DNA of 64,000 nt, from NCBI GenBank assembly GCA_964470695.1, contig CAYYDR010000001.1, positions 465,997-529,996 on the forward strand, given 5' to 3'. Below, piece by piece: positions 3,732 through 59,893 of the stretch. Numbering within the stretch: position 1 is the first letter of the stretch; every line of letters starts with the position of its first letter. The notes beneath the pieces were generated by a model. That model had not been told where the DNA came from. It did not search any database and was given only the letters and a program-made list of their open reading frames with translations. The translations under genes and the position numbers were made by a program. The stretch comes from an uncultured Gammaproteobacteria bacterium. Lineage in GTDB: Bacteria; Patescibacteriota; Patescibacteriia; Patescibacteriales; UBA12465.

Positions 3732-5537
3732 ATGAAAAAATTTAATAAAATTTTGACAATTATATTCACCATAGTTTTTATACTGGGATTTAATGAACCG
3801 ATAGCGGTGTTGGCCGCCACGACACCATCCTTGGGGATGGCTAATACCTATAGTGTTCTAGCTGGCACCTATACTAATACGGCCGCCGGAACAACTATCA
3901 CCGGCGATATTGGCTTTACTACCGGGCCAGCCGTTGTTCCGGCCGGAGCGCATCCTAATTATGGAGTCGGAGCGCCTTATGCCACCGCTGGTGTAGACCA
4001 GGATAATGCTTTATCAGCCTTAGCCCTGCAGGCTTGTACTTATAATTTCCCGGCCGGAGCTATTAACCTGTCTACTGATATAACGCATGGCCCAATTGGA
4101 GTTTATGCCCCAGGTGTTTACTGCAGCGTTGGAGCGATGGATATAGGCGGCCCCCTTAATCTTAACGGGAGTGGAACTTATATTTTTAGAACCTTAGGGG
4201 CTCTTACCTCTACCGCGGGAGCAACCATTACTCTAACTGGAGCATCGGCTTGTGATGTATTTTGGACGCCGACTCAGGCTACTACCTTGGCTGCTAATAC
4301 GACCTTTGTCGGAACCGTTATAGACGCCGCTGGTATTACCATCGGAGCTAATACTACTTGGTCGGGAAGAGCCTTGGCTTTTGGTGGGACAGTTACTACT
4401 GATACAAATACTATTGCGGTGCCAACTTGTGTTAACCCGGCTGCTTCATCTTTTTCTCGTACCGGGACTATTAACGTTGTTAAAGTAGTCATTAATGATA
4501 ATGGCGGCACTAAGACGGTGTCTAATTTTCCTTTATTTATTAATGGTTCGCCAGTCATTTCGGGAACCACTAATACTTTTCGGGCCCCTGGTGATGTTTA
4601 TAAAGTTACTGAAACGGCTGATTCTAATTATACCCGGACTTTTTCGGGTGATTGTGATGTTAACGGCGGCGTGAATTTGGTTCCCGGTGATAATAAATTT
4701 TGTATAATTACAAATAATGATATAGGCGTTGCTACTATTGCCTCGCCTGTTCCTCCGCTTATTGATGTCATAAAAGTTCCTGACCCTCTGGCTTTACCTA
4801 ATGGCCCTGGCTCAGTTATGTATACTTATACGCTCCGCAATATCGGAACAGTCCCGGTTACAAACATTACCATGGTTGGCGATACGTGTAGTCCTATCAA
4901 ACTTATTTCGGGCGACACGAATTCGGACGCTAAGTTAGACCTGAATGAAACTTGGGTGCATCGTTGTTCCACAATTCTCTCGGAAACTCATACTAATACC
5001 GTAGTAGCGACCGGCTGGGCTAATGGTTTAAGCGCGACTGATATTGCTAGCGCTAGAGTTGTGGTCGGTTTACCAGTAGTCCCGCCCTTAATTCATGTGA
5101 CAAAAGTTCCTAACCCTTTAACCTTGCGAGCCGGCGGCGGATTAGTCACTTATACTGAAAAAATAACTAATCCTGGAACAGTCGCTCTGAGTAATGTTAG
5201 CCTAGTTGATGATAAGTGCAGTCCCATGAAATATATTTCCGGTGATACTAACGGTAATTTAAAGCTTGAGACTACCGAGACCTGGACCTATACTTGTAGC
5301 CAAAATCTTACCAAGACCACCGCTAATACGGCTATAGCTCGAGGTGAAGCTAATGGTCTAGTAGTAAGAGATTTGGCCATTGCCACCGTCGTGGTCGCCG
5401 CTGTTTCCCCTCAATTGCCTAATACGGGAATTTTTTCCACGGGGGATGAATTTCCTTGGAGTATGGTTATATTGTCTAGTATTCTAATAGTAATTTCGGC
5501 TTCAATTATTTTGACTATGAAGAAACGGGTTCGCTAA
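3732..5537 (+). CDS. LPXTG-anchored surface protein with N-terminal DUF3494 (ice-binding-like) domain and two tandem Ig-like repeats
   Basis: Signal peptide. TYSVLAGTYTNTAAGTTITGDIGFT is typical of DUF3494. C-terminus has LPNTG, a hydrophobic stretch and KKRVR. Confidence 0.75.
   Translation: MKKFNKILTIIFTIVFILGFNEPIAVLAATTPSLGMANTYSVLAGTYTNTAAGTTITGDIGFTTGPAVVPAGAHPNYGVGAPYATAGVDQDNALSALALQACTYNFPAGAINLSTDITHGPIGVYAPGVYCSVGAMDIGGPLNLNGSGTYIFRTLGALTSTAGATITLTGASACDVFWTPTQATTLAANTTFVGTVIDAAGITIGANTTWSGRALAFGGTVTTDTNTIAVPTCVNPAASSFSRTGTINVVKVVINDNGGTKTVSNFPLFINGSPVISGTTNTFRAPGDVYKVTETADSNYTRTFSGDCDVNGGVNLVPGDNKFCIITNNDIGVATIASPVPPLIDVIKVPDPLALPNGPGSVMYTYTLRNIGTVPVTNITMVGDTCSPIKLISGDTNSDAKLDLNETWVHRCSTILSETHTNTVVATGWANGLSATDIASARVVVGLPVVPPLIHVTKVPNPLTLRAGGGLVTYTEKITNPGTVALSNVSLVDDKCSPMKYISGDTNGNLKLETTETWTYTCSQNLTKTTANTAIARGEANGLVVRDLAIATVVVAAVSPQLPNTGIFSTGDEFPWSMVILSSILIVISASIILTMKKRVR
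4749..5403 (+). repeat. two tandem repeats of about 108 codons inside the surface protein gene
   Basis: PPLIDVIKVPDPL...CSPIKLISGDTN... and PPLIHVTKVPNPL...CSPMKYISGDTN... align along their whole length. Confidence 0.7.
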
Positions 5538-5544
5538 CTTATAG

Positions 5545-6141
5545 ATGACTCAATTAAAAAAAATATTATTTGTTATTAGTTTTTCCGGAATAAGTTTTCT
5601 GGCAGTCATTATTTTTTTCTCAAGTTTTAACTGGTTTGCCCTTTGTTCTCAAGCTAAATACGCTTTAGCCGCCGGCAGTCCAGTTAAAACTAAATTAGTA
5701 AAAATTGATCGTCTTCGCATCCCCGCTATTAATATTAATATCCCCCTAGAACAGGTGGGTTTAACGACTCAAGGAGCCGTAGATGTGCCACGTAGTCCTA
5801 TTAGCGCTGCTTGGTTTAATCTTGGACCGCGTCCCGGCGACAACGGCAGTGCTGTGGTTGTCGGGCATTATGGCCGCTGGAAAAATGGTTTGTCAGGGGC
5901 CTTTAATAATCTATCCAAGTTGCGTCAGGGCGATAAAATATATATTGAAAATGCCAAGGGATCAACCACTATTTTTGTGGTTCGCGAGCGTAAATCATAT
6001 GATCCCCAGGCTGATGCCTATGATGTTTTTAATTCCGATGATGATAAACCCCATCTTAATCTCATTACCTGCGAGGGGGCCTGGGACAAAGTTTCTAAAA
6101 GCTATTCTAAGAGATTAGTAATATTTGCTGATAAGCAATAA
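5545..6141 (+). CDS. sortase-family transpeptidase
   Basis: N-terminal TM anchor; HYGRW (catalytic His region); LITCEG (TLxTC Cys motif). Starts 7 nt after its LPNTG substrate gene. Confidence 0.8.
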   Translation: MTQLKKILFVISFSGISFLAVIIFFSSFNWFALCSQAKYALAAGSPVKTKLVKIDRLRIPAININIPLEQVGLTTQGAVDVPRSPISAAWFNLGPRPGDNGSAVVVGHYGRWKNGLSGAFNNLSKLRQGDKIYIENAKGSTTIFVVRERKSYDPQADAYDVFNSDDDKPHLNLITCEGAWDKVSKSYSKRLVIFADKQ

Positions 6142-6267: not shown

Positions 6268-6295
6268 CTGGTTTTTTGTTTAAAATCAATTTTTT

Positions 6296-6334
6296 AAAAC
6301 TACCCGATAGATTATAAATATCGGGTAGTTTTTT
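6296..6334 (+). terminator. attenuator terminator (segments 3:4) upstream of trpB
   Basis: AAAACTACCCGATA-GATTATAAA-TATCGGGTAGTTTT gives a 14-bp stem ending in T6. Segment 2 (TATTGGGTAG, 6258-6267) can pair with segment 3 instead. Confidence 0.65.
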
Positions 6335-6444: not shown

Positions 6445-7644
6445 ATGGAAAATTCCTTAAAGTTATTACCTAATCAAGCTGGTTATTTTGGTGAATATGG
6501 CGGCCAGATAATTCCGCCTGTTTTAAAGCCAATTTTTGACGATATTGCGGCGGCTTATAAAGAAGCTCAGGCTGATCCGAGTTTCAGGGCCGAATATGAA
6601 GGCTTGTTAAAAAATTATGTGGGGCGTCCTTCGCCCTTATATTACGCTCGTAATTTATCGGCTAAATTAGGGGGCGCTAAAATATATCTAAAAAGAGAAG
6701 ACCTTAACCATACGGGCGCTCATAAAATTAATCATACTTTAGGCGAGGCCCTACTAGCTAAAAGAATGGGAAAAACTAAATTACTGGCCGAAACTGGTGC
6801 GGGACAGCATGGCGTAGCCTTGGCCACGGCGGCGGCCCTAGTCGGGCTAGAATGTGAAATTCACATGGGTGAGATTGATATTGCTAAGCAGCACCCTAAC
6901 GTTATCCGTATGCAGCTATTAGGGGCAAAAGTCGTGGCGGTTAAATCGGGCGGCCGCTGTCTAAAGGATGCGGTTGATAGCGCCTTTGAATCATTCGTGA
7001 AAGACCCGGTTAATATTTTTTTCGGCATTGGCTCAGTAGTTGGCCCGCATCCTTTCCCGATGATGGTCAGAGATTTTCAATCCATTGTCGGGCAAGAAGC
7101 GCGCGGCCAAATATTAGAGCAAGAGGGAAGATTGCCTGATTATTTAATAGCTTGTGTTGGTGGTGGCTCTAACGCGATTGGCTTATTTCACGAATTTCTG
7201 GATGATAAATCGGTTAAAATGGTAGGGGTTGAGCCAAGTGGTAAAAGCTTTAAGTCCGGTGAACACGCGGCGACTTTAACGTTAGGAACGCCTGGTAATA
7301 TTCATGGCATGTTTACTTATTTATTGCAGGATGATAAAGGACAGCCCTTGCCAGTCCATTCTATTGCCTCTGGTTTAGATTATCCCGGCGTCGGGCCGGT
7401 CCATTCGGATTTAAAGGATAAGGGAAGGGTGGCTTATGACTCTGTTAATGACGAAGAGGCTTTGCAAGCTTTTCAGACCTTAAGCAAAGTAGAGGGCATA
7501 ATTCCGGCTCTAGAGAGCTCTCATGCCCTGGCTCAGGCGATTAAATTAGCTCCTTCGCTAGGCCAGGATAAAATTATTATTGTTAACCTATCGGGCCGCG
7601 GTGATAAGGACATTGACTATGTAGCCGATAGATTGAAATTGTAA
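6445..7644 (+). CDS. trpB: tryptophan synthase beta chain
   Basis: [22 protein letters not shown] (PLP-Lys motif), GGGSNAIG and SGRGDKD are all present. Confidence 0.95.
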
Positions 7645-55067: not shown

Positions 55068-56306
55068 ATGAATAAAAAATACTCACATTTCTGGAAATTT
55101 AATATCCTTATTATCATTTTAGTAGGTTTGGTTTTTCTATCTCCAGCTGTTTTTAGCCAATATTCCAGTCTGGATGATGAAATAAATACCCTCAATCTTA
55201 AAATCCAGAATCAAAAGAAACAGCTGGAGGCCCTGCGATCTCGCCAACAAGAGTATCAATCGCAAATTGCTCTTAAACAGAAAGACAGAATTAATCTTAG
55301 CAATCAGCTGGCTATTCTTGATAACCGTTTAGCTAAAGCCGCTCTTGATATTGAAAGCGTTAATCTGGAAATAGACAAAACTAATCTAGAAATTAAAAAG
55401 ATAGAAATTGATAGTAAAAATTTAAATCAAAAAATTGAAGAGCAAAAACAGCACATTGCTAATCTCCTGCGATCTATGTATAAGCAGGACCAGATTTCTA
55501 CTTTAGAAATACTCCTTTTAAATAATTCTTTAACAGAATTTTTAAATCAGGCCCAATATTTAGTTGACGCCAACGAAGAGATAAGCGGCAGCGTAGAAGA
55601 CTTAAAATATGATAAAGATAGGTTAGAGCAGAATAAACTCAGCTTTGATCAAAAAAATATTGATTTGCTTTCTCTTAAAGATAAGCTGCAAGAAAAAAAA
55701 GAAGGGCTAGTTTTTGAACAAGAAAATAAAAATTATTTACTAGAGGAGACAAGATCTTCGGAACAGCAGTACCAAGCTTTATTACAGCAAGCCAGAAGGG
55801 AACAGCAGCAAGCTGAAGCTGATATTGCTAGCGCCGAGCAATTAATTAGGCAGAAAATGTCTCAAAAAGACAAAAATCGCCTGAATAATGGTAACAATAC
55901 TATCGCCTGGCCAGTACCTAAGAATGTTATTGTAACTAGTTTCCGCGACGCCGACTATCCTTATCGCAATATAATCGGTGAACACTCGGCGGTTGATATT
56001 AGAGCCAGACAGGGAACTAATTTGACTGCCGCGGCTGATGGCTATGTCGCTAAAGTTAAGTTTGATGGTTCAACCAAATATTCTTATATAATGATTATCC
56101 ATGGTAATGGCCTGGCGACTGTCTACGGCCATATTTCAGCGGCCTATGTCATGGCTGATCAATATGTCACTCAAGGGCAGTCAATTGGCCGAACGGGTGG
56201 CACGCCAGGAGGCGTTGGAACAGGCCCATTTTCTACTGGCCCTCATTTACACTTTGAAGTCCGTCTAAACGGTTTACCGGTTAACCCGGAGAACTATTTA
56301 CCATAG
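55068..56306 (+). CDS. M23-family metallopeptidase with N-terminal coiled coil (EnvC-like)
   Basis: TM/signal segment, long Q/E/K/L coiled coil, HSAVDI...HGNGL...GPHLHFEV. Confidence 0.9.
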   Translation: MNKKYSHFWKFNILIIILVGLVFLSPAVFSQYSSLDDEINTLNLKIQNQKKQLEALRSRQQEYQSQIALKQKDRINLSNQLAILDNRLAKAALDIESVNLEIDKTNLEIKKIEIDSKNLNQKIEEQKQHIANLLRSMYKQDQISTLEILLLNNSLTEFLNQAQYLVDANEEISGSVEDLKYDKDRLEQNKLSFDQKNIDLLSLKDKLQEKKEGLVFEQENKNYLLEETRSSEQQYQALLQQARREQQQAEADIASAEQLIRQKMSQKDKNRLNNGNNTIAWPVPKNVIVTSFRDADYPYRNIIGEHSAVDIRARQGTNLTAAADGYVAKVKFDGSTKYSYIMIIHGNGLATVYGHISAAYVMADQYVTQGQSIGRTGGTPGGVGTGPFSTGPHLHFEVRLNGLPVNPENYLP

Positions 56307-56326
56307 AATAAATCAATTTTTATAAA

Positions 56327-56358
56327 TAAAAAAGGGCTTTTAAAATAGCCCTTTTTTT
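56327..56358. terminator. bidirectional terminator at the point where gene orientation converges
   Basis: AAAAAAGGGCT-TTTAAAAT-AGCCCTTTTTTT. Confidence 0.8.
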
Positions 56359-56379
56359 GTTTTGGCTTTAAAAAGATCT

Positions 56380-56562
56380 TTACGTTCTTTTTTTGCCATG
56401 CCGTGTTTTCTTATCGGAAGCCTTTTTTGCCTCTGATTCAGCACTTGAGCCGCGGTGCGAGTTTTCTACTTCTCCTGCGTGTCCACAGCAGGGGCGACCA
56501 AACCCGCATGGTTGTCCGGTAAGATGGCAATGGCAAGAACAACTGTTGCTTGCTATAGACAT
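56380..56562 (-). CDS. small Cys/His-rich protein with basic tail (metal-binding suspected)
   Basis: MSIASNSCSCHCHLTGQPCGFGRPCCGH... has 6 Cys in its N-terminal half (positions 8-26). SD GAGGT lies 4 nt from the ATG. It has its own TTGACA-17-TAATCT promoter and a terminator downstream. Confidence 0.6.
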   Translation of the reverse strand: MSIASNSCSCHCHLTGQPCGFGRPCCGHAGEVENSHRGSSAESEAKKASDKKTRHGKKRT

Positions 56563-56587
56563 GCCAACCTCGTTAATTGTTAATTTT

Positions 56588-56616
56588 AGATTACATTAAA
56601 AAACGTTATTTGTCAA
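56588..56616 (-). promoter_or_regulatory. promoter (TTGACA-17-TAATCT, minus strand) of the Cys-rich gene
   Basis: The reverse complement of 56611-56616 is TTGACA and of 56588-56593 is TAATCT. The element abuts the xer stop codon. Confidence 0.55.
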
Positions 56617-57573
56617 CTAAAGTTTTCTTCCATCATGAACCTTGCGATGGATATCTCTTAGTTGTTTATTAGTGACATGGGTATATATTTGGGTAGTGGC
56701 AATATTGCTATGGCCTAAAAATTCTTGAACAGTTCTCAAATCAACGCCTTGATTTAACAAATCAGTAGCAAAGGAATGGCGCAGGGTATGGGGAGTAGCC
56801 ATGACAGGCAAGCCAGCTATTTTAACATATTTTTTAACAATATCTTCTATACTTTTAACAGTTAAACGGCGGCTAGCCTGGCCTTTTTGAGCGCCACGCT
56901 TATAATTGACGAATAAAGCCTCATCCATGTCCTTACGCTCGTTTAAATAGCTTCTGAGGGCCTTAACTGCTCGGATAGAGAAGTAAACAGCCCTAATTTT
57001 ACTGCCTTTGCCAATTACAGCCGTTTCTATATCAATAGTATTATCCTTAATTCTTAATTGATCCCGGTTTAGGGCTGTTAGCTCAGCAACGCGCAGGCCG
57101 GTGGAAAAAAGAGTCTCTAAAATAGCCTGGTCGCGGAGACCAATCAGGGTACTAAGATTCGGAGAACTCAGTAGCCGCACTAATTGGTCTAATTTAAGAA
57201 ATTTTATTTCCTTGTCACCTTTATCCTTAGCTAGTTTAACTTTTGACGGCGGCAAAGATGAAATATCTTTTTCTACAAAAAATTCTAATAAAGAACGCAG
57301 GGCGATTAAATAATAATTTTGAGTGGTTTTTTTTAAAGTTTTTTTAGTTCTAGGGTCAACATGGCGAGATAGATATACTTTATAACTCCAAATCTCCTCC
57401 GGAGACAGGGAAGCGGGTTTTAAGCTCTCCCGGCCCGTATCTTTAAGCCAAGTAAAAAACTTATGCAAGAAGCGCGTATAATTTTCCTGGGTCTTGGAAG
57501 ATAGACCTTTTTCAATTTCGCAATAATCCAGGAAGTCTACTAAATATTTTATTATCGGTTTATTTTTATCCAT
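56617..57573 (-). CDS. XerC/XerD-family tyrosine recombinase
   Basis: N-terminal SAM-like core-binding domain; catalytic residues present (R in GLRVAEL, HTLRHSFAT, GHSNIATTQIYTHV). Confidence 0.9.
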   Translation of the reverse strand: MDKNKPIIKYLVDFLDYCEIEKGLSSKTQENYTRFLHKFFTWLKDTGRESLKPASLSPEEIWSYKVYLSRHVDPRTKKTLKKTTQNYYLIALRSLLEFFVEKDISSLPPSKVKLAKDKGDKEIKFLKLDQLVRLLSSPNLSTLIGLRDQAILETLFSTGLRVAELTALNRDQLRIKDNTIDIETAVIGKGSKIRAVYFSIRAVKALRSYLNERKDMDEALFVNYKRGAQKGQASRRLTVKSIEDIVKKYVKIAGLPVMATPHTLRHSFATDLLNQGVDLRTVQEFLGHSNIATTQIYTHVTNKQLRDIHRKVHDGRKL

Positions 57574-57655
57574 ATTGAATTTCCTATTTACATTATAACA
57601 TAAGCAGGGGATGAAGGAATAAAGGCTTTATTTCTTAGTCTTTTTGCTTAACCAT

Positions 57656-57683
57656 ACTTCGCATAATGTATATTAATAAACGT
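57656..57683. other. candidate dif-like Xer recombination site
   Basis: ACTTCGCATAA-TGTATA-TTAATAAACGT. The 16-nt core CGCATAATGTATATTA is identical to the same positions of E. coli dif (recalled from memory). It lies 83-110 nt upstream of the xer start. Confidence 0.45.
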
Positions 57684-57692
57684 ATAGCTAGG

Positions 57693-57717
57693 CAAAATAG
57701 AAGGGGCCTTGGGCCCC
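57693..57717 (-). terminator. terminator of the serS-to-ftsQ minus-strand operon
   Basis: GGGGCC-TTG-GGCCCC, followed on the minus strand by TTCTATTTTG. Confidence 0.55.
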
Positions 57718-57739
57718 AGCTATATTAAGGGTTGTTTAA

Positions 57740-57880
57740 TTAACTAATAATGAGCCCCATTAAGCGTACATCAGGCTGAAACATTAAAATAATTTTAATG
57801 ATTAATAGAAATATGCCGATAACAACTAGACAGAAAATAACCACAGCTAAAGCAAATAATAATTTAAAAGCGCCTTCCAT
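57740..57880 (-). CDS. unannotated 46-aa single-TM small protein downstream of ftsQ
   Basis: MEGAFKLLFALAVVIFCLVVIGIFLLIIKIILMFQPDVRLMGLIIS. The ATG is 14 nt after the ftsQ stop and the ORF lies upstream of the operon terminator. Below the ORF-track cutoff. Confidence 0.4.
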   Translation of the reverse strand: MEGAFKLLFALAVVIFCLVVIGIFLLIIKIILMFQPDVRLMGLIIS

Positions 57881-57894
57881 ATATTTATGCTTAA

Positions 57895-58749
57895 TTATTT
57901 AAAATCTGGGTAAATTATGACCTGGTTGCTATAGCGCAGGTCCATATAGTTAGTCTTACTAAAATTATCCTTTATTTTTTGATTTTTGACAAGAAGAAGC
58001 CTCTCAATCTGGTCGTCAGCTGATTCCTTCGTGTTAAAGTAGATTAAAGGGCCATTAGCCACCTTAACTTTAATAGTGTTAAATTCTTGATCAATTATGA
58101 ATCTTTCCACCGGTAAATCGCTATGTTTTATTAGTCGTTCACTAAGTCCGAAAATAAAAATCAAATAATCATTTTTAATACTAAGCTTATTATTTTCGCC
58201 GACCATGCTTGACGATGACTTATTTTCAAGAATAAAATATCTTTTTTTGTCTTCTTCTTTAACGGCCGTCTCTTTAATAAGGTAGGCATCGGCTGAAGAA
58301 TATGATAAATCGCCTCCCTCTTGGAAAATAAAAGCATAGGGCCGCTCACTAACCTTTAAGATAAGCGTGTTGGGTAGCTTTTTACTAATTGTTAAGCCGG
58401 CAAAATTGTAAGCCGAAATAATCTGTTCACTAGCAATAGTTTTATCAAATAAAAAAATATTATTTTCTCTGAAAAATACCCAGTGCTTACCGCTCGCCTG
58501 ATCCCAAATTATTTTTTCTAATTCAGCGCTATTTATTCTCGTTAATCCTTCAATTTTTATATTTTTTATTTGCCACCAAGGAGCAAAAAAGACTAGCCAA
58601 ATCATGGCTAAGAAGCCAATAACCGCTAACAATATTATCCAAATAACTGAGCGCGGTTTTTTGTCTGGTTGACGACGGCGAAAAAACGGATTTTGCAGGT
58701 TCTTGCGCTGATAATCTTTTTTTATTTTTTTATAAGGTCGGCCAAGCAT
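57895..58749 (-). CDS. ftsQ: FtsQ/DivIB-like cell division protein
   Basis: Basic N-terminus, one TM segment, then a POTRA-like IKNIKIEGLTRINSAELEKII. Confidence 0.7.
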   Translation of the reverse strand: MLGRPYKKIKKDYQRKNLQNPFFRRRQPDKKPRSVIWIILLAVIGFLAMIWLVFFAPWWQIKNIKIEGLTRINSAELEKIIWDQASGKHWVFFRENNIFLFDKTIASEQIISAYNFAGLTISKKLPNTLILKVSERPYAFIFQEGGDLSYSSADAYLIKETAVKEEDKKRYFILENKSSSSMVGENNKLSIKNDYLIFIFGLSERLIKHSDLPVERFIIDQEFNTIKVKVANGPLIYFNTKESADDQIERLLLVKNQKIKDNFSKTNYMDLRYSNQVIIYPDFK

Positions 58750-58753
58750 TGTT

Positions 58754-59893
58754 TTACCATTTTATTTCTTTTCTAATTGATGATTGTAGCTCTACTAGTA
58801 GCTCATATGGCAATATATCAGCTAGTCGGCTTAAATTAGCTAATGAATTAGGGGCTTTTTTGTCATTTGATATTATTAAAACATTATCACCAATTTTTGC
58901 TTTATATTCGCCAATTTCTAAACAAGATAAATTCATACAGACTTTACCGGCTAATTGAGCTAAAAATCCGCCTTGTCCGTTTATAACTAGTAGTTTAGCC
59001 TGATTTGATAGACGGCGGTTTAGGCCTTCAAAATAACCGAAGGGGATAATTCCTATTCTAGTATCCTTATCAGCCCGAAAGCTTTCATTATAAGAAACAC
59101 TTTCGCCTTTTTTTATATTTTGCATTGATATCAGACGGGAAAAAACTTGTAGGGCTGGCTGAAGATTTTTGGTGTCTTCCCTGTCTTCAAAAAAAGGACT
59201 ATAGCCATAAAATGATAAACCGGGTCGATAAGCCGTAAGCATTCTATTTCTTAAAGTAAAAATGCCGGCGGAATTGCCCAAGTGTATCCAGCGCGGAGAA
59301 AACCCTAGGGCTTGTAAATTTTTCAAGGCTTCTAAAAAATTATCTTCTTGGATTTTATTTAAAGCAGAATCCGTTTCAGCGGAAGCTAAGTGGGAACAAA
59401 AACCGCTTATCTCTACTTGATCTAAATACTTTTTTTCCTCGGTCAAAAAATCAGAAAAATTCTTAATCCCTTCCCTATTCATGCCAGAGTTAAAAAAGAG
59501 ATGTATTTTTACTTTTTTGCCGAATTTAGCTAGATAATGAAGTGTTTCTTTATTATAAACGACAAATTCTGTTCTGTTAAAATCACAATAATTATAAGCG
59601 CGATGCGGCATTTCCCCTAATATGAGCACGCGGCCGTGAAAATACTGATAAACTACTTGAGCCTCGGGATAAGAGTCAACTGCGACCATTAGGGCAGCTG
59701 ATGAATTTAAAATCTGGCAGACCTCCTTTAAACCGTGGCCGTAAGCGTTGGATTTTAGGACTGGGAATATTTCCGCTTCAGGATGAATATTCTTTAAGAG
59801 AGAAAAGTTAGCTAATAATTTAGGAGCATCAATCTCCATTAAATTTAGAGTGTCGTATTTAGGTTTAATTAGGCGGCGCAAAAAATCCATCAT
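58754..59893 (-). CDS. alr: alanine racemase
   Basis: VLKSNAYGHG (PLP-Lys), plus R..G...YG and SMD-type motifs along the length. Confidence 0.93.
   Translation of the reverse strand: MMDFLRRLIKPKYDTLNLMEIDAPKLLANFSLLKNIHPEAEIFPVLKSNAYGHGLKEVCQILNSSAALMVAVDSYPEAQVVYQYFHGRVLILGEMPHRAYNYCDFNRTEFVVYNKETLHYLAKFGKKVKIHLFFNSGMNREGIKNFSDFLTEEKKYLDQVEISGFCSHLASAETDSALNKIQEDNFLEALKNLQALGFSPRWIHLGNSAGIFTLRNRMLTAYRPGLSFYGYSPFFEDREDTKNLQPALQVFSRLISMQNIKKGESVSYNESFRADKDTRIGIIPFGYFEGLNRRLSNQAKLLVINGQGGFLAQLAGKVCMNLSCLEIGEYKAKIGDNVLIISNDKKAPNSLANLSRLADILPYELLVELQSSIRKEIKW

What the first reader, a model, noticed from the sequence alone, without database searches (positions are those of the whole stretch)
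56380..56616. GC-rich 60-codon gene for a Cys/His-rich small protein with its own consensus promoter at the terminus
Sequence: MSIASNSCSCHCHLTGQPCGFGRPCCGHAGEVENSHRGSSAESEAKKASDKKTRHGKKRT. Six Cys and three His lie in the first 28 residues (CSCHCH, PCGFGRPCCGH), followed by an acidic then a strongly basic tail. The gene has TTGACA-17-TAATCT, a GAGGT SD (rare in this genome) and a strong terminator, and it is visibly more GC-rich than the surrounding DNA. The Cys pattern resembles bacterial metallothionein or zinc-knuckle sequences, but I do not recognise a family. It may be a metal-binding or nucleic-acid-binding micro-protein and may be acquired.
Basis: partly seen in the sequence, partly recalled or inferred. 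Interest (0 to 1): 0.55.

Follow-up and report, generated by a model that had tools for sequence, protein, structure and literature searches.

The report
Orphan Cys/His-rich 60-residue protein gene
A real but very rare 60-codon gene for a cysteine- and histidine-rich mini-protein, probably a metal binder, sits next to the replication terminus of an uncultured Falkowbacteria genome; it is absent from 137 related genomes and has only two known relatives, both in groundwater bacteria.

Summary
ORF 56380-56562 (-) encodes the stated 60-aa peptide. It has a perfect -35 box, a 17-nt spacer, a weak -10 box (TAATCT), a GAGGT Shine-Dalgarno (SD) site that is rare in this genome, and a bidirectional terminator.

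It is not a known RNA: there is no Rfam hit and no unusual fold energy.

It is protein-coding. A search of 1.84 billion proteins found one credible family: P0003 (61 aa) and P0005 (62 aa), from groundwater metagenomes. These share S-C-x-C-H-C-H-[LV]-T-G-Q-x-C-G-x(2-3)-P-C-C-x2-A-G-x-V, the same length and a strong SD site. P0003 and P0005 differ almost only at third codon positions in this domain (dN/dS 0.07).

No Pfam, NCBIfam, PHROG, PADLOC or PDB match exists.

The gene is missing from all 137 syntenic Falkowbacteria loci. There the xer/M23 junction is either a bare terminator or holds unrelated cargo, so the gene is an accessory gene, probably acquired.

Its higher GC is fully explained by amino-acid composition, so GC is not evidence of foreign origin.

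Metal-thiolate binding (metallothionein-like or a knuckle) is the best inference, but it is untested.

Interest is moderate to low: this is a genuine new micro-family with no functional handle.

The parts
56380..56562 (-). Coding sequence, 60 codons plus a TAA stop: MSIASNSCSCHCHLTGQPCGFGRPCCGHAGEVENSHRGSSAESEAKKASDKKTRHGKKRT
   Evidence: ORF list. It is homologous over its full length to P0003 and P0005. Only this frame is open in all three members.
56467..56544 (-). Conserved Cys/His domain, residues 7-32: S-C-x-C-H-C-H-[LV]-T-G-Q-x-C-G-x(2-3)-P-C-C-x2-A-G-x-V, with six invariant Cys and two invariant His
   Evidence: Alignment A2. Between P0003 and P0005 the differences by codon position are 1/2/11 and dN/dS is 0.07. 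Window against either homologue gives 8/8/19.
56383..56466 (-). Divergent charged tail, residues 33-60. It is basic at its end here and acidic in the homologues. Only a G-K-K near the C-terminus is shared.
   Evidence: Alignment A2. Tail dN/dS is about 0.6 to 1.2. AlphaFold2 pLDDT is below 50 here.
56567..56571 (-). Shine-Dalgarno GAGGT, 4 nt upstream of the ATG
   Evidence: Sequence. The homologues have AAAGGAGG at the same place. SD motifs are rare in this genome, about 8 of 53 long ORFs.
56588..56616 (-). Sigma-70-type promoter: -35 TTGACA (56611-56616), 17-nt spacer, -10 TAATCT (56588-56593)
   Evidence: Sequence. TTGACA-N17-TAnnnT is found 5 times against 0.48 expected, always upstream of an ORF start on the same strand. 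It falls below the threshold of the generic scan because the -10 matches at only 3 of 6 positions.
56328..56357 (.). Bidirectional intrinsic terminator (GGGCT-loop-AGCCC flanked by A and T runs), shared with the convergent M23 peptidase gene
   Evidence: Terminator scan and RNA fold. Relatives with a short xer/M23 gap carry only such a terminator at this place.

Best explanation
This is a real, independently expressed accessory gene for a 60-residue cytoplasmic micro-protein. It belongs to a very small, undescribed family with three known members. The conserved part is an N-terminal module of about 26 residues with six invariant cysteines and two invariant histidines (C-x-C-H-C-H ... C ... C-C). 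This module most likely wraps one or two metal ions, or a small metal-thiolate cluster. Zn(II) is the most likely metal; Cu(I) or Fe are alternatives. The charged C-terminal tail is disordered and evolves freely. The gene has its own host-type promoter, an SD site and a terminator. It was probably gained by horizontal transfer into a variable spot between the convergent xer and M23-peptidase genes, about 1.1 kb from the dif-like site at the replication terminus.

Shown: the gene's anatomy, its coding nature, its family, its absence in relatives, and the lack of any known family match.

Inferred: metal binding, the identity of the metal, the physiological role (metal buffering or sequestration, or a metal-stabilised knuckle that docks on a partner), and the direction and source of transfer.
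For: - Anatomy: promoter pattern roughly tenfold enriched and always gene-proximal; SD site.
- Homology: a phmmer search of 1.84e9 representatives returns P0003, which is 61 aa, aligns over its full length at 43% identity, E = 2.3e-4. Its relative P0005 is 62 aa. Composition-preserving shuffles never approach the observed score: 113 against a maximum of 69 in 20,000 shuffles. The motif occurs nowhere else in 1.16 Mb of fetched DNA read in six frames.
- Coding: P0003 and P0005 differ at codon positions 1/2/3 by 1/2/11 in the Cys domain, with dN/dS 0.07. Only the sense frame is open in all three members. The SD-ATG geometry is conserved.
- Not RNA: there is no Rfam match on either strand even at E <= 10 apart from terminator look-alikes. 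Fold z-scores are -1.2 and -0.9 once the terminator is excluded.
- Accessory: neither protein nor DNA similarity is found in 160 loci around orthologous xer genes. The xer/M23 gap has a median of 108 nt; 71 of 137 loci have at most 120 nt (just a terminator) and 57 of 137 carry unrelated inserts longer than 400 nt.
- Different contexts: the homologues sit downstream of trmD and upstream of rpoB in a 50%-GC genome.
- Metal binding: six Cys and two His are invariant within 19-20 residues, in C-x-C and C-C motifs. There is no signal peptide or hydrophobic segment, so a cytoplasmic location is inferred. This rests on established knowledge of metallothioneins and zinc knuckles.
Against: - The family has only three sequences, two of which are 72% identical, so 'invariant' residues are weakly sampled.
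- The database E-value (2.3e-4) is good but not overwhelming for a Cys-rich query.
- The third-position pattern between the window and P0003 is partly built in, because the hit was selected by protein similarity.
- No structure could be predicted (pLDDT 52.7).
- There is no metal-homeostasis gene or any functional partner nearby in either context.
- The gene caller of one public pipeline did not call this ORF on an identical contig.
- Codon usage is host-like, which neither supports nor excludes recent transfer.
- No expression data exist.
Confidence: 0.55

Rival explanations
1. The ORF is a non-functional chance reading frame in a short piece of junk or remnant DNA inserted at a variable intergenic spot, and the similarity to P0003 is a chance match between Cys-rich sequences.
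For: - Many spurious ORFs of 30-70 aa overlap the region, including a 68-aa antisense ORF.
- The ORF was not called on the identical public contig.
- It is absent from all close relatives.
- The E-value is only 2.3e-4 in a very large database.
Against: - The match is collinear from residue 4 to the C-terminus, between proteins of 60 and 61 aa, with all six Cys and two His in register.
- Shuffles never come near the observed score.
- The SD site sits at the same distance in all members.
- A host-type promoter and a terminator frame the ORF precisely.
- The matched family is itself under strong purifying selection.
- The antisense ORF is interrupted in the homologues.
Confidence: 0.1
2. The locus is a structured non-coding RNA or sRNA gene, GC-rich within an AT-rich genome and with its own promoter and terminator. 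On this reading the ORF is incidental.
For: - Stand-alone promoter and terminator, with local GC above the background.
- With the terminator included, the fold z-score is -3.55.
Against: - There is no Rfam family on either strand.
- Without the terminator hairpin the z-scores are -1.2 (sense) and -0.9 (antisense).
- The GC excess equals what the peptide's amino-acid composition predicts.
- Substitutions among homologues fall at third codon positions, not in compensatory pairs.
- There is no DNA conservation in 160 related loci.
Confidence: 0.03
3. The peptide is the precursor of a ribosomally synthesised, post-translationally modified peptide (RiPP). Its Cys-rich core lies at the N-terminus and a C-terminal follower peptide follows it, as in bottromycin. 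Thioether or thiazole chemistry would act on the Cys residues.
For: A small Cys-rich peptide with a conserved N-terminal segment and a variable, charged C-terminal segment. The resemblance is recalled from knowledge of bottromycin and ranthipeptide precursors, not tested.
Against: - No radical-SAM, YcaO, lanthionine-synthetase or peptidase/exporter genes lie near the gene in either genomic context. The neighbours are GltX, an M23 peptidase, Xer, an FtsQ-like protein and Alr in the window, and S16, KhpA, TrmD and RpoB in L161.
- There is no NCBIfam match to SCIFF or other precursor models.
- The host has a small genome.
Confidence: 0.04
4. The Cys/His module is a metal-stabilised knuckle, or a redox-active Fe(Cys)4 or Fe-S centre (desulforedoxin-like, using the vicinal C-C). 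Its role would be structural or regulatory, by docking onto a protein or nucleic acid, or electron transfer, rather than metal storage.
For: - Residues other than the ligands are also invariant (T-G-Q, G, P, A-G, V), which suggests a defined fold rather than a loose thiolate cluster.
- The vicinal C-C-G in the window recalls desulforedoxin's V-C-C-G (recalled from memory, not tested).
- The basic tail in the window copy could contact nucleic acid.
Against: - There is no C-x2-C knuckle.
- There is no Pfam hit to zf-CCHC, rubredoxin or desulforedoxin models, even at E <= 10.
- The tail is acidic in the two homologues, so nucleic-acid binding is not a family trait.
- No partner gene is conserved between the two contexts.
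Confidence: 0.2

Closest known systems
Bacterial metallothioneins (SmtA/BmtA, Pfam PF02069; mycobacterial MymT)
   Same: About 50-60 residues and cytoplasmic. Cys is clustered in C-x-C and C-C motifs, with His as additional ligands. There are few aromatic residues. The gene is a stand-alone small gene.
   Different: - No sequence match to PF02069 or to any PDB chain.
- Only 6 Cys, all in one 19-residue stretch, against 8-9 Cys spread over the whole chain.
- A long charged tail.
- No adjacent metal-sensing repressor (smtB-like).
- Metal binding has not been shown.
Desulforedoxin / N-terminal domain of desulfoferrodoxin (Fe(Cys)4, C-x2-C ... C-C)
   Same: A very small module that uses a vicinal Cys-Cys pair, followed by Gly in the window copy.
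   Different: There is no C-x2-C pair, no Pfam hit, and two extra Cys plus two His. The resemblance is recalled from memory and limited to the C-C(G) motif.
CCHC zinc knuckle (C-x2-C-x4-H-x4-C)
   Same: A short Cys/His module next to a basic tail in the window copy.
   Different: The spacing is not met: the pattern here is C-x-C-x-C-x6-C-x5(6)-C-C. There is no Pfam hit. The basic tail is not conserved.
Six-Cys ranthipeptide precursors (SCIFF) and other Cys-rich RiPP precursors
   Same: A short peptide with six Cys.
   Different: The Cys residues are N-terminal, not C-terminal. There is no NCBIfam hit and no adjacent radical-SAM maturase.

Membership tests
Unnamed family P0003/P0005 (groundwater metagenome small proteins) | Full-length collinear similarity with the motif S-C-x-C-H-C-H-[LV]-T-G-Q-x-C-G-x(2-3)-P-C-C-x2-A-G-x-V, and a length of 60-62 aa | tested here: met
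   phmmer E = 2.3e-4 in 1.84e9 proteins. Alignment A2 has 23 invariant columns. Shuffle test.
Unnamed family P0003/P0005 (groundwater metagenome small proteins) | Evolves as a protein: purifying selection, and only one frame open | tested here: met
   P0003 against P0005 gives dN/dS 0.07 in the Cys domain, with differences by codon position of 1/2/11. Other frames are interrupted.
Bacterial metallothionein (SmtA/BmtA, PF02069) | Match to the family profile | tested here: not met
   No Pfam or NCBIfam family at E <= 10 for any of the three members. No PDB chain at E <= 10.
Metallothionein in the broad, functional sense | Low mass, high Cys content in C-x-C / C-C / C-x-x-C motifs, and few aromatic residues | tested here: met
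   Read from the sequence: 60 aa, with 6 Cys among the 19 residues from C8 to C26. The motifs present are C-x-C-x-C and C-C. There is one Phe and no Tyr or Trp.
Metallothionein in the broad, functional sense | Binds several metal ions through thiolate clusters | not testable with these tools
   Needs a metal-loaded recombinant or synthetic peptide, analysed by ICP-MS, native MS and UV spectroscopy.
CCHC zinc knuckle (PF00098) | C-x2-C-x4-H-x4-C spacing and a profile match | tested here: not met
   The spacing read from the sequence is C8-x-C10-x-C12-x6-C19-x5-C25-C26. There is no Pfam hit.
Desulforedoxin (PF06397) | C-x2-C plus a vicinal C-C that together bind one Fe, and a profile match | tested here: not met
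   The vicinal C-C is present but there is no C-x2-C. There is no Pfam hit.
SCIFF / ranthipeptide precursor | Profile match and an adjacent radical-SAM maturase | tested here: not met
   There is no NCBIfam hit. Neighbours in both contexts lack a radical-SAM gene.
Any Rfam RNA family | Covariance-model match at or near the gathering score | tested here: not met
   There are no matches at gathering score in the whole window. At E <= 10 only terminator look-alikes appear, far below gathering score.

The most novel reading that the evidence does not exclude
The gene founds a new class of horizontally mobile, stand-alone metal-cluster micro-proteins of ultra-small groundwater bacteria. The fold would be a C-x-C-H-C-H / C-C Cys6His2 fold unrelated to known metallothioneins or zinc fingers. 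It would move between distant lineages as a minimal cassette of promoter, SD, ORF and terminator, landing in insertion hot spots: downstream of xer near the terminus here, and in the trmD-3' cassette array in the groundwater relative. It would give its host a selectable trait such as metal tolerance or scavenging.
Probability: 0.2. Interest if true: 0.55.

Novelty: new variant of a known kind. Interest (0 to 1): 0.35.

Why it matters
If the peptide binds metal, it would define a new minimal Cys6His2 metal-binding fold. It would be one of very few metal-handling proteins known from Patescibacteria, organisms with tiny genomes whose metal homeostasis is almost unknown. It is also an example of a conserved small gene that standard gene calling missed. 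As it stands, it is one of very many orphan small-protein families. It has three members, no functional partner and no structure, so the pay-off depends entirely on a simple biochemical test.

Tried and rejected
- **Known RNA.** Rfam on both strands, at gathering score and at E <= 10, and tRNA/tmRNA gave nothing. Folding without the terminator is not exceptional.
- **Known protein family.** Pfam, NCBIfam, PHROGs, PADLOC and PDB sequences, searched with the peptide and with the 3-member alignment, gave nothing.
- **Word-indexed protein search.** Searches with the peptide and with the family profile found no members beyond P0003 and P0005.
- **Public DNA collections.** Back-translated 8-mers of the window peptide found no relative in metagenome contigs. 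Family patterns found none in viral contigs. tblastn against phage and plasmid records found none.
- **Conservation in relatives.** tblastn and blastn against 160 Falkowbacteria loci found none.
- **Structure.** AlphaFold2 on the 3-sequence alignment gave pLDDT 52.7 and pTM 0.21. That is too poor for a fold search, so none was run.
- **Insertion scars.** No meaningful direct or inverted repeats flank the gene.
- **Cargo inserted at dif (IMEX-type element).** Rejected. The conserved dif-like site lies upstream of xer, about 1.1 kb away, and the short xer/M23 gaps of relatives hold only a terminator.
- **Foreign GC signature.** Rejected, because amino-acid composition explains the GC.
- **Other phmmer hits.** P0001, P0002 and P0004 are repetitive or low-complexity proteins that match only a 9-15-residue stretch. 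They were treated as spurious.
- **Literature.** Searches for Cys-rich small proteins or metallothioneins in CPR/Patescibacteria returned nothing.
- **Phylum of the organism carrying P0003/P0005.** It could not be determined, because it shares no genes with the window.

Full report
**1. What is in the sequence**

- Cys residues lie at positions 8, 10, 12, 19, 25 and 26. His residues lie at 11, 13 and 28.
- Upstream, the -35 hexamer TTGACA (56611-56616) directly abuts the stop codon of the preceding tyrosine-recombinase gene (56617-57573, minus strand).
- After a 17-nt spacer comes TAATCT (56588-56593), then GAGGT (56567-56571), four bases before the ATG.
- The -10 box matches TATAAT at only three positions, so the generic promoter scan skipped it.
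- The pattern TTGACA-N17-TAnnnT occurs five times in the window against 0.48 expected by chance. Every copy lies upstream of an ORF start on its own strand, so this looks like the host's own promoter type.
- SD-like motifs precede only about 8 of the 53 long ORFs in the window. The SD site here is therefore unusual for this genome.
- Downstream, the hairpin 56328-56357 with A and T runs on both sides is a bidirectional terminator, shared with the convergent M23-peptidase gene that ends at 56306.

**2. Composition**

The ORF is 49-50% GC against 38% for the window, which places it in the top 2.6% of 183-nt windows. Translating its amino-acid sequence back with the codon usage of 47 long ORFs of the window predicts 49.3% GC and GC3 of 0.399. 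The observed values are 50% and 0.40. The GC excess is simply the cost of encoding Cys, Gly, Pro, Ala, Arg and His. It says nothing about foreign origin.

**3. Genomic setting**

- Pfam identifies the neighbours as CorA, a WecG/NUDIX protein, GltX, an M23 peptidase, then the ORF, a Xer-type tyrosine recombinase, and alanine racemase. The 284-aa protein between the recombinase and the racemase had no Pfam match at this threshold. On the identical public contig it carries only a faint POTRA_1 hit, so 'FtsQ-like' is tentative.
- Orthologous recombinases at 62-87% identity come from Candidatus Falkowbacteria and other Patescibacteria metagenome-assembled genomes.
- GC skew changes sign at about 56-58 kb and gene orientation converges at the ORF.
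- A dif-like site (57656-57676) lies just upstream of xer. In most of the sequences printed its core, ATTAATATACATTATGCGAAGTAT, is identical, and 82 of 151 related loci hold a site within 4 mismatches of the general dif pattern. 'At the terminus' is therefore well founded.
- A public contig from run SRR13723396 is 100% identical over 3.3 kb, including the ORF. The ORF was not called as a gene there.

**4. RNA or protein?**

- Rfam gives no match at gathering score anywhere in the window. At E <= 10, only terminator look-alikes appear.
- The apparent fold stability (z = -3.55) comes from the terminator. Without it, z is -1.2 on the sense strand and -0.9 on the antisense strand.
- The word-indexed protein search found nothing.
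- An exhaustive phmmer scan of 1.84 billion representatives returned four hits. Three are repetitive proteins that match a 9-15-residue stretch.
- The fourth, P0003, is a 61-residue protein that aligns from residue 4 to the end at 43% identity (E = 2.3e-4).
- P0003 has one relative, P0005, of 62 aa and 72% identical to it.
- All three share S-C-x-C-H-C-H-[LV]-T-G-Q-x-C-G-x(2-3)-P-C-C-x2-A-G-x-V and a G-K-K near the C-terminus.
- Composition-preserving shuffles of the query never approach the observed alignment score: 113 against a maximum of 69 in 20,000 shuffles.
- Even a loose version of the Cys pattern occurs nowhere else in 1.16 Mb of fetched DNA read in six frames.

At the DNA level the three genes differ mainly at third codon positions.

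- Between P0003 and P0005, the differences in the Cys domain fall 1/2/11 over codon positions, and dN/dS is 0.07.
- For the window against either homologue the counts are 8/8/19, with synonymous sites saturated.
- Only the sense frame is open in all three. The 68-aa antisense ORF of the window is interrupted in the homologues.
- All three have an SD site at the same distance from the ATG.

One caveat applies. The window-versus-P0003 codon pattern is partly built in, because the hit was chosen by protein similarity. The independent evidence is the P0003-versus-P0005 comparison together with the shared length and architecture. I conclude that this is a protein-coding gene of a tiny conserved family.

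**5. Distribution**

- None of the 160 loci fetched around orthologous xer genes contains anything similar, at protein or DNA level.
- The xer-to-M23 arrangement is conserved in 137 of these loci. The gap between the two genes has a median of 108 nt.
- In 71 loci the gap is at most 120 nt and holds just one bidirectional terminator. In 57 loci it holds more than 400 nt of mutually unrelated cargo.
- The junction is therefore an insertion hot spot, and the small gene is one lineage-specific occupant.
- No repeats or scars flank it.
- The homologues lie in a different context, after rpsP-khpA-trmD and before rpoB-rpoC, in a 50%-GC uncultured groundwater bacterium. The region there is itself rearranged by insertions that duplicate the 3' end of trmD.
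- Taken together, this evidence makes horizontal acquisition the most economical reading: absence from relatives, presence in a distant genome, and an SD site in a genome that mostly lacks them. It is not proven, and codon usage is uninformative.

**6. Function**

- No Pfam, NCBIfam, PHROG, PADLOC or PDB sequence matches any member, even at E <= 10.
- AlphaFold2 on the three-sequence alignment is unusable (pLDDT 52.7).
- No conserved neighbour suggests a pathway.
- What remains is the chemistry of the conserved module. Six invariant Cys and two invariant His lie within 19-20 residues. They form C-x-C-x-C and C-C motifs, with His alternating on the opposite face of the C-x-C-H-C-H stretch. The peptide has no signal sequence or hydrophobic segment.
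- From established knowledge of metallothioneins and Cys/His knuckles, such an array in a cytoplasmic protein almost always ligates metal.
- I therefore favour a metal-thiolate micro-domain, with Zn(II) most likely and Cu(I) or Fe possible, carrying a disordered and freely evolving tail.
- The tail is basic in the window and acidic in the homologues. Nucleic-acid binding through the tail is therefore not a family trait.
- The alternatives are set out as rivals: a single-metal knuckle or redox centre, a RiPP precursor, a spurious ORF, and an ncRNA.

**7. Comparison with known systems**

- It works most like a bacterial metallothionein in size, C-x-C and C-C motifs, His co-ligands and stand-alone gene. 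It is not a member of the SmtA/BmtA family, because the profile test failed.
- It has no CCHC spacing and no C-x2-C pair. It shares only the vicinal C-C with desulforedoxin, and that resemblance is recalled from memory.
- It lacks the maturase partner and the C-terminal core of SCIFF-type precursors.

**8. Verdict**

Metal binding is plausible but untested, and the GC argument is invalid. The finding is a new small-protein family of a broadly familiar kind. Interest is moderate to low unless the biochemical test reveals a new metal-binding fold.

Noticed in passing
window 57656-57676 (- strand), intergenic between the 46-aa ORF 57740-57880 and xer (start 57573): A dif-like site, TTAATATACATTATGCGAAGT. 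In most of the printed sequences its core, ATTAATATACATTATGCGAAGTAT, is identical, about 75-170 nt upstream of xer; 82 of 151 Falkowbacteria loci hold a site within 4 mismatches of the general dif pattern. With the GC-skew sign change at about 56-58 kb and the convergence of gene orientation, it marks the replication terminus with xer right beside its site.
   Followed up: partly
L001-L160, between the xer stop and the M23-peptidase stop (equivalent to window 56307-56616): The convergent xer/M23 junction is an insertion hot spot in Falkowbacteria. 71 of 137 loci have at most 120 nt (one terminator). 57 of 137 carry 0.4-2.8 kb of unrelated cargo. The cargo includes prepilin-like proteins, a recurrent 121-133-aa ORF with an HExxH motif and no Pfam match (L115-L121, L125, L135, L151), and an extra integrase plus a roughly 160-aa ORF (L132, L153, L154).
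   Followed up: partly
L161 5300-6850 (Hainich groundwater contig carrying homologue P0005): There are three copies of the last 27-45 nt of trmD: the true 3' end at 5313-5339, one at about 5899-5936 and one at 6449-6475. There are also two copies of a 39-nt inverted-repeat element (5801-5839, 6285-6323) and two similar terminators. Together they frame three small ORFs of 118, 62 and 86 aa, none with a Pfam match. In L167 the Cys-rich gene follows trmD directly. This looks like a site-specific cassette array at the 3' end of trmD.
   Followed up: partly
window, whole (start regions of 53 long ORFs): Most genes lack any SD motif (about 8 of 53 have one). Many have a TATAAT-like box only 5-10 nt before the ATG, for example at 55068, 50048 (-), 22805, 11522 and 52350. 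This suggests leaderless or very short-leader mRNAs.
   Followed up: no
window 1-64000: No tRNA, tmRNA or Rfam family at gathering score anywhere in the 64 kb.
   Followed up: no
window 57740-57880 (- strand): A 46-aa very hydrophobic ORF (MEGAFKLLFALAVVIFCLVVIGIFLLIIKIILMFQPDVRLMGLIIS) lies between the FtsQ-like gene and the dif-like site. It is called as a gene on the identical public contig L169 and has no Pfam match.
   Followed up: no
L169 (Logan contig SRR13723396_131569), equivalent to window 55812-59073: An independent public contig is 100% identical to the window over 3,262 bp. The 60-codon ORF was not called by that pipeline, so small genes of this family are likely under-represented in protein databases.
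   Followed up: yes
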